Part shown: one piece after another, positions 1,083-60,203 of the stretch
Layout: each line of letters starts with the position of its first letter
Numbering within the stretch: the stretch's first letter is position 1
Position numbers and translations under genes: made by a program
DNA from: Nitrospirota bacterium
GTDB lineage: Bacteria > Nitrospirota > UBA9217
NCBI GenBank assembly: GCA_963826885.1
Contig: CAWGYL010000003.1
Coordinates: 598,310 to 662,309, forward strand
Length of the DNA stretch: 64,000 nt
Direction of reading: 5' to 3'
Notes under the pieces: generated by a model
Told to the model about the DNA's origin: nothing
Databases searched by the model: none
What the model saw: the letters and a program-made list of their open reading frames with translations, nothing else

Positions 1083-1132
1083 CTCGGGCTACAACCCGAA
1101 GGTCGTCGGTTCAAATCCGGCCCCCGCTACCA
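1083..1132 (+). other. tRNA 3'-half-like segment, copy 1 (anticodon-arm 3' strand, 5-nt variable loop AGGTC, T-arm GTCGG-TTCAAAT-CCGGC, acceptor 3' strand CCCCGCT, discriminator A, CCA). No complementary 5' acceptor strand upstream
   Basis: Canonical T-loop TTCAAAT, a paired T-stem and a terminal ACCA at 1129-1132. Nothing within 100 nt upstream can pair with CCCCGCT, so this reads as a partial tRNA typical of an integrase att site. A related copy lies at 60110-60159. Confidence 0.5.
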
Positions 1133-1164
1133 AACTTATCAAGGGGTTACAGCGTCAGCTGTAG

Positions 1165-1930
1165 CCCCATTTTTATATGTATGCCAGGCATGACGCTCTG
1201 TATTTTACAGGCTGGTCAGATTGGTAACTGACTGGCGACTCGAAGGTGAAAGTCCTTTATGGGCCTTGATGGGAGGAACCGTTAGCCGAACAGCAAGGGT
1301 GTCCGGGGCGACCCGGAATCTGAAGGAAGCTGTAAGCAAAGTCCCGGCCTGACGAACAGAAACCGCATATGAGGCAGCCACACTTGGGCGAGAGGGCATA
1401 AAGACTCAAAGCCCGATAACCATCCGGAAGGTGTGGAAGTAGATGCGGCGGGTATATGGGATGAAGGTCATGCGTCTTACCCTGGGAGGTCTGCCGTTCT
1501 GCCATGTGCTATCGACATCGTAAGGTGTTGAGATGGATCGGTAGAAGTCAGCAGAGGCCGTATTAGTCCCGCACCAACGGGATGAAGGGCCGAACTTGTC
1601 GGACTGTTCGAGACCGAATCTCTATCTGTACTGAGCACAAGCCCCGCAAGAGGGCCTAGGCTGGAAGTAGCGGACGGAATCCGCAGGTAAAGTCAGGTGC
1701 TTATAGAACAGGAGGCGACAAGGTCACCGAAAGAGCGGAAAGACAGGAACCGCCGTATGCCGAACGGCACGTACGTGTGGTGTGGGAGGACGGCGGGAGT
1801 AATCCCGCCTCCTACCCGATCAGGACGGTATCAGGACAGTTACAGGACATATGCTGATAAGGGAAGGCGGACATGGATCTAACATAGACCAACCGATAGC
1901 CTCGATGTCGAAGAAGAGAGGGGAAAATTA
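1165..1930 (+). ncRNA. Candidate large structured non-coding RNA or ORF-less element (GC-rich block between AT-rich flanks, only short mutually overlapping ORFs)
   Basis: About 760 bp with no ORF over 82 aa. It has many short inverted repeats and GNRA-like loops (for example GGGTATATGGGATGAAGGTCATGCGTCTTACCC). Its composition is clearly different from the adjacent AT-rich DNA. It sits immediately 3' of the tRNA-like segment. Strand is unknown. Confidence 0.2.
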
Positions 1931-2165
1931 GGGGGCGAATGGCACGCGAAAAAGGAAGGCCAGATCATTCTATTCGGCGAGACAGGAAGCAGTTGAAATA
2001 AATATTATTTAGCGACATTATCAGCTATCATGTTTTAGGACAACAGAAAATATGGGGTATTTAAATTAAATTATAGGGGTATGCACTTGACGCCAGCAGT
2101 TACTATTTAGAAAGCACGTGCCTTACAGTGAGTGAAGAGGGATTCCATGAAAAAGAATAATACGT

Positions 2166-2480
2166 ATGGGGTTTCTGTGCGTCGTTATCGCACTTACAAT
2201 TTATGGTGGGGTGATATTTATTACAACCGTGGTGTCTGAGCAGCCGCTCAATGGTATAAACACGACAAAACGGACAATCGAATACAGTGATAATGTTCTT
2301 GAGGAGATAACAATCGAAACACCGCGCGGACCGTATCTATTGTCCAAAATATGCATCGATGGGGCGGCATATTATCTCACGACTGATAAGCTTGGTGATA
2401 AATTATTTGGGATAACTCCTGCGCTTGATAATAGAGGCAAAGAACAACTTTGTAATGGGAATAAAACCACGAAACGGTAG
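2166..2480 (+). CDS. Hypothetical small protein with an N-terminal transmembrane/signal segment
   Basis: 104-aa ORF in AT-rich DNA with a hydrophobic N-terminus (FLCVVIALTIYGGVIFITTVV). No recognisable domain. Confidence 0.3.
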   Translation: MGFLCVVIALTIYGGVIFITTVVSEQPLNGINTTKRTIEYSDNVLEEITIETPRGPYLLSKICIDGAAYYLTTDKLGDKLFGITPALDNRGKEQLCNGNKTTKR

Positions 2481-2666
2481 AAACCCAACGATAGATACGT
2501 TGGATAAGAGTTAATCTATAAAGAACTAATATAAAAATAATTATAACAGTTTAAAATACATGTATTTGCCCCGTTGCTGGTGTCAAGTGCATAGCCATAA
2601 AACAGTATATGATTTGGTACGGAAACAAGTCTCTAAATAGAAAAGCATGCTTACTCGGGAAAATAG

Positions 2667-59080: not shown

Positions 59081-59084
59081 GATA

Positions 59085-59804
59085 CTACCCCTTGTCCAGA
59101 TCTGCTGAATCGGAAAGCTTATAGCCGACCCCCCTCACACTCAAAATGTACCGAGGTTGGGCGGGGTTTTCCTCGATTTTGGCCCTGAGGCGGTTGATAT
59201 GGGAATTGACCGTGTGCTCGTAGCCCTCATATTCGTAACCCCAGACTAGATTCAGTAGCTCCTTGCGTGTATTCACCCTTCCGGGGCAATTCATAAAATG
59301 GAGCAACAGGTCAAACTCTTTAGCTGTCAACATCACAGGATTTCCCCGAAGAGTAACCTGCCGCTTTTCAACATCAACCACTAGATCGCCTGTCTGTATC
59401 GTATCGTGCGATTGATGCGCCGCCTCCGACTTAAGCACCTCCACGCGACGGAATAGTGCCTTAACCCGCGACATAAGCTCTCGAATGCCGAATGGCTTTG
59501 TCAGGTAATCGTCTGCTCCGATCTCCAGGCCGAGAACCCGGTCAATCTCGGAAGACCTGGAGGTCAGCATTAAGATGGGAATGTAGGTCGCGGCGGCTCT
59601 CAAACGTCGACAGATCTCCAGCCCGTCCATGCCTGGCAGCATCAGATCTAGAATAATCAGGTCGTGGTTTTTAGAGAGGGCTTGCTCGATACCAGCATTG
59701 CCGTCAAAGGCCAAGTTTACTTCGTATCCTGTATCCCTCAGATGAAGCTCCACAAGATGAGCGATATCTTTATCGTCTTCAATTATAAGAACTCTGCGAG
59801 GCAT
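59085..59804 (-). CDS. OmpR-family response regulator (REC plus winged-helix)
   Basis: REC motifs (DD, phospho-acceptor D in IILDLMLPGMDG, and K). C-terminal OmpR/PhoB-type DNA-binding domain. Confidence 0.9.
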   Translation of the reverse strand: MPRRVLIIEDDKDIAHLVELHLRDTGYEVNLAFDGNAGIEQALSKNHDLIILDLMLPGMDGLEICRRLRAAATYIPILMLTSRSSEIDRVLGLEIGADDYLTKPFGIRELMSRVKALFRRVEVLKSEAAHQSHDTIQTGDLVVDVEKRQVTLRGNPVMLTAKEFDLLLHFMNCPGRVNTRKELLNLVWGYEYEGYEHTVNSHINRLRAKIEENPAQPRYILSVRGVGYKLSDSADLDKG

Positions 59805-60109
59805 ACTTTCTGCTCCTTCAGCATTTTTGTGCTGCTCATAATAATTAGCATATCATAAAAATTGCCAGGAAAATTTCCCGTAACCAATGACACCATATTT
59901 TGTATATGCAATCATTTGCGGATAAAGCGGCTCCGCTGATATAAATGTTTATGTGTAAGTTACAAACAGAATTTTTTGATTGTTTCAAACAACGAGAACT
60001 ACACACTTGAAGGTGTAGAGCGCAATATCCAGAAAATGCAACTCTTGTGATCTACATGATGTAGTTCACGCTTATGCGGGAGGAGCTGATTTGCACAATA
60101 TTATACTAT

Positions 60110-60159
60110 TGGGGTGCTATAACCCGAAGGTCAGAGGTTGAAATCCTCTCCCCGCTACC
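60110..60159 (+). other. tRNA 3'-half-like segment, copy 2 (T-arm AGAGG-TTGAAAT-CCTCT, acceptor 3' strand CCCCGCT, A, CCA)
   Basis: 38 of 50 positions are identical to copy 1. The T-stem differences are compensatory (GTCGG/CCGGC versus AGAGG/CCTCT). No 5' acceptor partner upstream. Followed 10 nt later by a strong terminator. Confidence 0.5.
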
Positions 60160-60169
60160 AGACTAATCA

Positions 60170-60203
60170 TGGGGTTGCAGTTCATACTGCAACCCCATTT
60201 TTT
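60170..60203 (+). terminator. Rho-independent terminator (10-bp stem GGGGTTGCAG/CTGCAACCCC followed by ATTTTTT)
   Basis: Perfect hairpin plus a T-run immediately after the tRNA-like CCA end. Confidence 0.7.

What the first reader, a model, noticed from the sequence alone, without database searches (positions are those of the whole stretch)
1083..60203. Three direct-oriented tRNA 3'-half-like segments suggest tandem integrated islands with no integrase left
There are three segments at 1083-1132, 18688-18719 (degenerate) and 60110-60159. All look like the anticodon-loop-to-CCA part of a tRNA, in the same orientation, with no 5' acceptor strands. Copy 2 is followed by a strong terminator, as a native tRNA 3' end would be. 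Copies 1 and 2 differ by compensatory T-stem changes, so each derives from a once-functional tRNA end and is not random decay. This is the footprint expected from successive site-specific integrations at one tRNA gene. The intact tRNA would lie upstream of coordinate 1. The intervening DNA (phn cluster; the 41-kb mosaic with IS remnants and pseudogenes) would then be island cargo. A RES-Xre TA pair sits at the end of the upstream unit. No integrase gene is present in the window.
Basis: partly seen in the sequence, partly recalled or inferred. Interest (0 to 1): 0.6.

Follow-up and report, generated by a model that had tools for sequence, protein, structure and literature searches.

The report
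Island array at initiator tRNA gene
The three segments are real leftover 3' halves of the initiator methionine tRNA gene, marking the joints of a long chain of decayed genomic islands in a Nitrospirota-like bacterium; this is a well-documented kind of genome architecture.

Summary
Windows 1083-1132 and 60110-60159 are 3' halves of initiator tRNA-fMet, each with a conserved trailer and terminator. 18680-18719 is a degenerate third copy (nhmmer E 0.003). None has a 5' half and none is a tRNA gene.

- **Larger array:** overlapping metagenome contigs show at least seven more direct copies, four to five upstream and two downstream of the window. That makes at least 10 copies over at least 85 kb.
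- **Related genomes:** a related Nitrospirota MAG has an intact tRNA-fMet whose 3' half is identical to copy 1. Its downstream 850 bp is homologous to the DNA after copy 3.
- **3'-half swapping:** at the same syntenic locus, relatives keep the 5' half but carry different 3' halves, trailers and downstream genes.
- **Trailer identity:** the trailer is the reverse complement of the last codons (…AVTP-stop) of a convergent tyrosine integrase gene. That gene is intact in about 9% of related loci, including one complete 10.5-kb element.

Two corrections apply. The terminator claim does not hold for 18688-18719, and integrase relics do remain.

This is a new member of a known kind (tandem accretion, CIME-like islands, Dehalococcoides ssrA islands). 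Interest is modest.

The parts
5..831 (+). Xre-type antitoxin (start lies upstream of the window; 166 aa in L001/L002) and RES toxin (364-831). This is the cargo of the module that ends at copy 1.
   Evidence: PF09722 Xre_MbcA_ParS_C and PF08808 RES on identical contigs. ORFs.
844..1039 (+). Fragment of a DUF6610 gene. The ORF 844-1164 then reads on into the tRNA-like copy, so its C-terminus is spurious.
   Evidence: aa 13-65 match DUF6610 profile positions 94-150 of 198, E 2e-11.
1083..1132 (+). Copy 1, the 3' half of initiator tRNA-fMet. It has a 6-nt loop remnant (CTACAA), the anticodon-stem 3' strand, T arm GTCGG/CCGGC, and acceptor 3' strand CCCCGCU-A-CCA.
   Evidence: E 2.7e-30. 40/40 identical to the L117 tRNA from 1093. 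No tRNA by ARAGORN or Rfam.
1133..1178 (+). Trailer and intrinsic terminator (hairpin 1143-1168, then a T-run). On the minus strand, 1139-1174 reads KNGATADAVTP-stop, which is the relic of the 3' end of a convergent tyrosine integrase gene.
   Evidence: terminator; full-length integrases end at this position in L133, L195, L224, L179, L163 and L198. Pfam Phage_integrase for L133, L195, L163 and L179.
1179..1820 (+). ORF-less group II intron inserted 3 nt after the terminator T-run. It is a later insertion and not part of the att site.
   Evidence: RF02001, 147 bits; RF01998, 67 bits; absent from the otherwise identical contig L001; 86%-identical homologue after a similar terminator in L139.
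1821..1855 (+). Direct repeats ATCAGGACGG / ATCAGGACAG / ACAGGACA that follow the terminator once the intron is removed. Candidate arm-type protein-binding sites.
   Evidence: CAGGACAG occurs 7 times in the window versus 1.3 expected. Analogous paired repeats of other sequence follow the trailer in other loci.
5711..18552 (+). Cargo between copies 1 and 2: a GntR regulator and the C-P lyase phosphonate cluster (PhnD/C/E, G, H, I, J, K/L, M-like), plus an AP_endonuc_2 protein.
   Evidence: precomputed Pfam on identical contigs.
18680..18719 (+). Copy 2, a degenerate remnant running from the variable region through the T arm to a decayed acceptor. Its T stem is broken and it has no trailer or terminator.
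   Evidence: E 0.0026; 17-mer with 1 mismatch; no terminator.
22951..23163 (+). 96.7% duplicate of 60251-60463, the flank that follows copy 3, including the first 13 codons of the SnoaL-like gene. Possibly a fourth, eroded joint.
43978..44352 (-). IS630-type transposase fragment (DDE_3 C-terminal part).
   Evidence: PF13358, E 3.5e-11, profile positions 83-140 of 146.
60107..60159 (+). Copy 3, a tRNA-fMet 3' half with T-stem allele AGAGG/CCTCT, a T-loop C56-to-G change and the loop remnant CTATAA.
   Evidence: E 1.7e-34; the allele is found in 9 intact tRNA-fMet genes.
60160..60250 (+). Trailer, terminator (60169-60198) and AGGACAG repeats. The minus strand reads KNGVAV-stop-TATP-stop, a decayed integrase 3' end.
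60119..60962 (+). Stretch homologous (78% identity) to the DNA running from inside the intact tRNA-fMet through a SnoaL-like lipoprotein gene in a related MAG.
   Evidence: L117 1500-2344.
60998..61117 (-). 39-codon C-terminal relic of a second tyrosine recombinase (…LPGHKSLKTTMRYAHVASG).
   Evidence: six unrelated integrases hit this spot by tblastn, best E 0.004. (ORF). Phage_integrase profile 147-169 of 172, E 0.003, below Pfam's cut-off.

Best explanation
The window lies inside a long array of genomic islands that accreted one after another at an initiator tRNA-fMet gene of a Nitrospirota-like bacterium.

**Proposed mechanism.**
- Each incoming element carried a tyrosine integrase and an attP. 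The attP mimics the tRNA from the anticodon loop to CCA, plus about 70 nt of trailer.
- Recombination in the anticodon loop rebuilt the tRNA with the element's 3' half. It pushed the previous 3' half, and everything behind it, downstream.
- Repetition left same-strand 3' halves as the joints between modules.
- The integrases were later lost. The modules are now integrase-less cargo blocks: TA pairs, the phn cluster, redox and transport genes.
- The conserved trailer is the 3' end of the convergent integrase gene overlapping a bidirectional terminator.

**What is shown and what is inferred.**
- Shown: the identity of the copies, the extent of the array, the empty-site-like relatives, the overlap between integrase 3' end and trailer, and a complete active-looking relative.
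- Inferred: the order of events, the crossover position, and whether integrases were deleted or modules were moved in trans.
For: **Identity of the copies.** Copy 1 is 40/40 identical to the L117 tRNA-fMet 3' part and has a near-identical trailer.

**Extent of the array.** More direct copies occur at:
- L002 1859-1978 and 2050-2182;
- L119 16680-16784 and 18165-18285;
- rcL181 5760-5873 and 12177-12271.
- A further degenerate copy was seen by eye at L244 ~2400, not by the profile.

**Relatives with an intact tRNA.**
- In L117 the intact tRNA is joined directly to the homologue of window 60119-60962.
- The syntenic loci L117/L196/L205 and L250 share an identical 5' half and a VOC gene on the 5' side. 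They differ in T-stem allele, trailer and downstream genes.

**A complete relative.** L133 is a 10.5-kb element with tRNA (attL), an integrase, and a 3'-half copy (attR). The empty site is seen in L197.

**Integrase overlap.**
- Integrases of 348-440 codons end exactly in the trailer (…VTP-stop) in 6 of 69 loci that have enough flank.
- Four of them were scanned and are Pfam Phage_integrase, E 4e-40 to 3e-15.

**Wider pattern.**
- 110 viral contigs carry the same tRNA part. Many have the match at the contig end or an adjacent integrase.
- Several junction copies seen by eye carry an inverted repeat (G)ACCTTCGGG … CCCGAAGGT(C) around the loop, as expected for a core site.
- Modules are joined differently in different strains.
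Against: - The intact tRNA of the source genome was never seen. About 14.5 kb upstream in overlapping contigs holds only more copies.
- Every copy in this genome lacks its integrase but keeps the hairpin and repeats. Most related loci, including intact tRNAs, also lack an integrase (63 of 69). The trailer could therefore be the native tRNA terminator that integrase genes read into, rather than a deletion scar.
- Copy 3 carries a T-stem allele different from the closest relative's tRNA, and more copies follow it. It is therefore not clearly the native end.
- Junction variants such as L006 come from short metagenome contigs and could be assembly chimeras across the ~90-nt repeat.
- The crossover site is inferred, not measured.
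Confidence: 0.8

Rival explanations
1. Cassette platform served in trans. The modules never had their own integrases. They are integrase-less units, each carrying a tRNA-3'-half/terminator/repeat att site. An integrase encoded elsewhere inserts, excises and shuffles them, as with cis-mobilizable elements or integron cassettes.
For: - All copies seen in this genome, and 63 of 69 related trailers with enough flank, lack an integrase while keeping the hairpin and paired repeats.
- Some modules are tiny, about 200 bp to 1.6 kb.
- The same left module is joined to different right modules in different samples.
Against: - No trans integrase was identified.
- Integrase relics in the trailers, and the one at 60998-61117, fit decay of resident integrases.
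- Junction variants may be assembly artefacts.
- L133 shows the ordinary self-encoded arrangement.
Confidence: 0.12
2. Decayed tandem tRNA genes. The locus once held several complete initiator tRNA genes (as in E. coli metZWV). Unrelated insertions and decay left only the 3' parts.
For: - Initiator tRNA genes are often multi-copy (general knowledge).
- Each strong copy has its own terminator.
Against: - No significant trace of 5' halves at any of eight copies.
- Similarity starts at the anticodon loop in all strong copies.
- Integrase 3' ends overlap the trailers.
- The T-stem alleles differ, as expected if the copies came from different sources.
Confidence: 0.04
3. Functional tRNA-like terminator or processing modules, or a small RNA, reused at operon ends and unrelated to integration.
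For: - The trailers hit Rfam sRNA family BjrC68 below threshold (30.1 and 21.5 bits against a gathering score of 39).
- The hairpins carry structure-preserving changes.
Against: - There is no acceptor 5' strand, so no tRNA-like fold is possible.
- Copy 3 has a mutated T loop and copy 2 is eroded.
- Structure-preserving variation is explained by descent from functional tRNA and attP copies.
Confidence: 0.04

Closest known systems
Dehalococcoides ssrA genomic islands (McMurdie et al. 2011, PMC3146451)
   Same: - Multiple tandem islands lie downstream of one small-RNA gene.
- The islands are delimited by same-strand direct repeats of its 3' end, more than a dozen within 100 kb.
- Many islands lack an integration module and were suggested to be cis-mobilizable.
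- Content varies between strains.
   Different: - The target there is tmRNA, the repeat is 20 bp at the T loop, and the integrase is a serine recombinase.
- Here the target is initiator tRNA and the repeat spans ~50 nt of tRNA plus a ~70-nt trailer from the anticodon loop.
- The associated integrases here are tyrosine recombinases whose 3' end overlaps the trailer.
Tandem accretion and cis-mobilizable elements (CIMEs) of ICESt1/ICESt3-type elements (Pavlovic 2004; reviewed in PMC5704250)
   Same: Site-specific integration next to a resident element is followed by loss of integration and transfer genes while the att sites are retained. The result is integrase-less blocks flanked by att copies.
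   Different: - Those cases are in Firmicutes, target the 3' end of protein or tRNA genes, and have few units.
- cis-mobilization was shown experimentally there and is not tested here.
Anticodon-loop class of tRNA integration sites (Williams 2002, Nucleic Acids Res 30:866; cited from memory)
   Same: The attP carries the tRNA 3' part from the anticodon loop. The integrase gene lies next to attP and ends up beside the tRNA.
   Different: - The homology block here runs on through the terminator into the integrase 3' codons.
- Initiator tRNA as a target in Nitrospirota was not checked against that survey.

Membership tests
tRNA gene (functional) | Complete cloverleaf with both acceptor strands, detected by tRNA finders or a covariance model | tested here: not met
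   ARAGORN finds 0 genes. Rfam tRNA scores 14 bits against a gathering score of 29, and tRNA-Sec 16.3 against 47. 5'-half similarity is not significant.
att-site remnant of a tRNA-targeting integrative element | Same-strand partial copies of the 3' part of one tRNA gene, starting at a fixed sublocation | tested here: met
   Copies start at the anticodon loop and all lie on the + strand. They match tRNA-fMet of a relative 40/40.
att-site remnant of a tRNA-targeting integrative element | An intact copy of the target tRNA at one end of the array | tested here: inconclusive
   Not found within ~14.5 kb upstream in overlapping contigs. It is present at the syntenic locus of relatives L117, L196, L205 and L250.
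att-site remnant of a tRNA-targeting integrative element | Empty or differently occupied site in related genomes | tested here: met
   In L117 the intact tRNA is joined to the homologue of window 60119-60962. L133 (occupied) and L197 (empty) form a pair. Relatives have different downstream content.
att-site remnant of a tRNA-targeting integrative element | Associated site-specific recombinase | tested here: inconclusive
   No intact integrase in the window. Relics survive in the trailers and at 60998-61117. Full-length integrases sit at the same position in related loci.
Cis-mobilizable element (CIME) | Lacks integration and transfer genes but keeps attL and attR | tested here: met
   The blocks 1.2-18.7 kb and 18.7-60.1 kb are bounded by copies. 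No recombinase or transfer gene was found among the 69 ORFs or fragments of the window scanned against Pfam, apart from the sub-threshold relic at 60998-61117, nor on contigs identical to the window.
Cis-mobilizable element (CIME) | Excision or transfer together with, or by the integrase of, a neighbouring element | not testable with these tools
   This needs excision PCR or long-read population data. Strain-variable joints are only suggestive.
Class C (IIC) group II intron (side feature at 1179-1820) | Insertion just downstream of an intrinsic terminator hairpin | tested here: met
   The insertion lies 3 nt after the T-run. The terminator is scored. A homologue sits in the same position in L139.
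Class C (IIC) group II intron (side feature at 1179-1820) | IIC-type RNA structure and intron-encoded protein lineage | not tested
   Only generic Rfam D1-D4 models matched. There is no ORF in the 642-bp element.

The most novel reading that the evidence does not exclude
The initiator-tRNA locus works as an integron-like platform. Small integrase-less modules, each headed by a tRNA-3'-half/terminator/paired-repeat site, would be inserted, excised and reshuffled among strains by a '…VTP' tyrosine integrase supplied in trans. This would give Nitrospirota-type bacteria an exchangeable store of toxin-antitoxin, defence and metabolic cassettes.
Probability: 0.13. Interest if true: 0.6.

Novelty: new member of a known kind. 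Interest (0 to 1): 0.3.

Why it matters
- It marks a variable region of at least 85 kb in an uncultured Nitrospirota-like genome as horizontally acquired cargo. That cargo includes phosphonate use, redox and detoxification enzymes, and TA systems, and the block boundaries can be located from the copies.
- It shows that the initiator tRNA gene is a heavily used docking site in environmental bacteria.
- It explains a conserved 'tRNA trailer' motif as the overlapping 3' end of an integrase gene. That motif could serve as a search key for island boundaries in metagenomes.
- It does not reveal a new mechanism.

Tried and rejected
- **Apparent 5'-half resemblance upstream of copies 1 and 3** (GTAGCTC, GCGGGAGGAGC). 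Local alignment against shuffles gave p 0.16-0.9, so this is rejected as chance.
- **Plasmid or phage origin.** The plasmid search matched only an ~80-90 bp stretch of the group II intron (query 1743-1830) in windows 1-6000, and nothing at all for 56000-64000.
- **Search for integrase remnants.** tblastn with 16 integrases taken from related loci found only the 60998-61117 relic and the trailer codons.
- **Search for further copies in the window.** nhmmer with --max found none beyond the three.
- **Locating the source's intact tRNA.**
  - Walking upstream through the 365-aa neighbour found more copies but no tRNA.
  - Searching for the VOC gene that flanks the tRNA in relatives returned no hit on the 805-kb source contig.
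  - Contigs carrying the window's own proteins showed no island-free variant.
- **Copy 3 as the displaced native end.** I first read it this way from the L117 homology. I weakened this after finding two more copies 8.4 and 9.9 kb further on, an integrase relic at 61 kb, and a T-stem allele that differs from the closest relative.
- **First lookup of ORF 5-364** failed because the true start lies upstream of the window.
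Full report
**Observation.** The three segments are present as described.
- Copy 1 reads CTCGGGCTACAACCCGAAGGTCGTCGGTTCAAATCCGGCCCCCGCTACCA.
- From AACCCG to CCA it is the 3' part of a bacterial initiator tRNA. 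It has the three G-C pairs of the anticodon stem, a T arm, and the acceptor strand CCCCGCU with U72.
- It is 40/40 identical to an intact tRNA-Met(CAU) found by ARAGORN in a Nitrospirota MAG (L117).
- Copy 3 differs at 7 of 40 positions. Three T-stem pairs changed on both sides (GTCGG/CCGGC to AGAGG/CCTCT) and the T loop carries C56 to G.
- In 203 collected copies of this tRNA part, 199 have a fully paired T stem across 28 variants. Both window alleles occur in intact genes. The compensatory pattern therefore reflects descent from two functional alleles.

**Statistics and tRNA tests.**
- A profile of nine copies scores the window at 60113-60250 (E 1.7e-34), 1086-1178 (E 2.7e-30) and 18680-18711 (E 0.0026). 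Nothing else is significant.
- ARAGORN finds no tRNA in the window.
- Rfam tRNA models stay far below threshold.
- The DNA upstream of eight copies shows no significant similarity to the tRNA 5' half.
- Terminators follow copies 1 and 3 but not the degenerate copy at 18.7 kb.

**The array is much larger than the window.** Contigs identical to the window extend it in both directions.
- L002 adds two copies 0.3-0.6 kb upstream of position 1. One has an intact CTCATAA loop.
- L244 and L181 add more copies up to about 8.8 kb upstream. There is still no tRNA within ~14.5 kb.
- L119 adds copies about 4.5 and 6.0 kb beyond the window end, that is 8.4 and 9.9 kb after copy 3.
- In total, at least ten same-strand copies span at least 85 kb.

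**Comparison with relatives.**
- In L117 the intact tRNA is followed by the same trailer. It is then followed by 850 bp that are 78% identical to window 60119-60962, including a SnoaL-like lipoprotein gene.
- L117, L196, L205 and L250 share a conserved 5' flank (a VOC-family gene) and an identical tRNA 5' half. They differ in T-stem allele, trailer and downstream genes.
- This is what repeated replacement of the 3' half by incoming elements predicts.
- L133 is a complete 10.5-kb element: an intact tRNA, then a convergent integrase, and a 3'-half copy at the far end. L197 shows the corresponding empty site.
- 110 viral contigs carry the same tRNA part. It often lies at the contig end or beside an integrase.

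**The conserved trailer explained.**
- After CCA, every strong copy has A-ACTTATCAAGGGGTTAC, a hairpin and a T-run, then two or three short direct repeats (here AGGACAG).
- Read on the other strand, the trailer encodes …K-N-G-A-T-A-x-A-V-T-P-stop.
- In L133, L195, L224, L179, L163 and L198, an ORF of 348-440 codons ends exactly at that stop.
- The four of these that were scanned (L133, L195, L163, L179) are tyrosine integrases by Pfam, E 4e-40 to 3e-15.
- The trailer is therefore the 3' end of a convergent integrase gene overlapping a bidirectional terminator.
- Window copy 1 keeps KNGATADAVTP-stop. Copy 3 keeps a decayed version with an internal stop.
- Only 6 of 69 trailers with enough flank still have the integrase.
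- The same trailer also follows tRNA-Lys and tRNA-Val genes in metagenomes.
- Several junction copies seen have an inverted repeat, (G)ACCTTCGGG … CCCGAAGGT(C), around the loop position. This is the anatomy of a tyrosine-recombinase core site.

**Integrases in the window.**
- None is intact.
- Besides the trailer codons, a 39-codon relic (…LPGHKSLKTTMRYAHVASG) lies at 60998-61117 on the minus strand. It starts just past the end of the homology with L117.
- Together with the two further copies downstream, this suggests that 60.1-70 kb is yet another island rather than the native flank.

**Cargo and decay.**
- Confirmed cargo: the Xre-RES pair, a DUF6610 fragment whose ORF runs into copy 1, and an amino-acid permease and the phn C-P lyase cluster.
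- The 19-60 kb stretch holds transporters, dehydrogenases, an AraC regulator, a cytochrome, MsrAB and a two-component system.
- Signs of decay: a frameshifted aldo/keto reductase and an IS630-type transposase fragment.
- A 213-bp duplicate of the post-copy-3 flank at 22951-23163 may mark an eroded joint.

**Variation between samples.**
- L006 equals the window up to copy 1, then equals L171 exactly from the copy onwards.
- L244, L245 and L181 share one side of a joint and differ on the other.
- This fits recombination at the copies. Chimeric assembly across a ~90-nt repeat cannot be excluded.

**Interpretation.**
- The best explanation is serial site-specific integration at the anticodon loop of tRNA-fMet, followed by loss of the integrases (confidence 0.8).
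- The main rival is that the modules are moved in trans without ever owning an integrase (0.12).
- Decayed tandem tRNA genes and a functional RNA module are unlikely.

**Comparison with known systems.**
- The architecture matches the tandem ssrA islands of Dehalococcoides. Those have more than a dozen direct repeats within 100 kb, and many islands lack integration modules.
- It also matches the accretion and CIME model.
- The differences are the target (initiator tRNA), the long homology block, and the overlap with the integrase 3' end.
- I rate it a new member of a known kind, with modest interest (0.3).

Noticed in passing
window 1179-1820: A 642-bp ORF-less group II intron is inserted 3 nt after the T-run of the copy-1 terminator. 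It is absent from the otherwise identical contig L001. An 86%-identical homologue sits after a similar tRNA-trailer terminator in L139. This behaviour is typical of terminator-targeting (class C) introns.
   Followed up: partly
window 60998-61117 (- strand): A 39-codon C-terminal relic of a tyrosine recombinase (…GHKSLKTTMRYAHVASG). It lies just beyond the end of the homology with the related MAG.
   Followed up: partly
window 22951-23163 and 60251-60463: A 213-bp direct duplication at 96.7% identity. It copies the flank that follows copy 3, including the first 13 codons of the SnoaL-like gene. No tRNA-like piece lies upstream of the 22.9-kb copy, so it may be an eroded fourth joint.
   Followed up: partly
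window 43978-44352 (- strand): IS630-type transposase fragment (Pfam DDE_3, profile positions 83-140 of 146, E 3.5e-11).
   Followed up: yes
window 36350-37332 (- strand): An aldo/keto reductase is split into two overlapping ORFs (profile positions 2-94 and 115-289). It is probably a frameshifted pseudogene.
   Followed up: no
window 5267-5491; L119 12531-12675; L120 13928-14072 and 14889-14968: A short repeat of 145 bp at 96.5% identity, plus an adjacent 80 bp at 92.5%. It lies between the permease and the phn regulator and recurs twice just beyond the window end. Its nature is unknown; it could be a MITE.
   Followed up: no
window 844-1164: This ORF is a chimera. Residues 13-65 match the middle of DUF6610. 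The C-terminus (…GYNPKVVGSNPAPATK…) is simply a translation of the tRNA-like copy. Gene callers annotate it as a DUF6610 protein.
   Followed up: yes
L119 18040-18100 (- strand), about 5.9 kb beyond the window end: A 3' fragment resembling tRNA-Leu(CAA), running from the anticodon arm to CCA on the opposite strand. It abuts the tRNA-fMet copy at L119 18165-18285. It is a remnant from a different tRNA target.
   Followed up: no
metagenome loci L137, L147, L148, L151, L179, L182 and others: The same trailer (…ATCAAGGGGTTAC hairpin, …VTP-stop on the other strand) follows intact tRNA-Lys and tRNA-Val genes. The integrase family therefore appears to have members with other tRNA specificities.
   Followed up: partly
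window 1130-1177 and 60158-60205: Both trailers hit Rfam BjrC68 (a Bradyrhizobiaceae sRNA) below threshold, at 30.1 and 21.5 bits against a gathering score of 39. The model begins with CCA, so that 'sRNA' family may itself be a tRNA trailer or integrase 3' end.
   Followed up: no
L006 versus window 210-1174 and L171 1075-1432: This contig joins the window's RES module to a different downstream module exactly at the tRNA-like copy. It is either a natural recombinant or an assembly chimera.
   Followed up: partly
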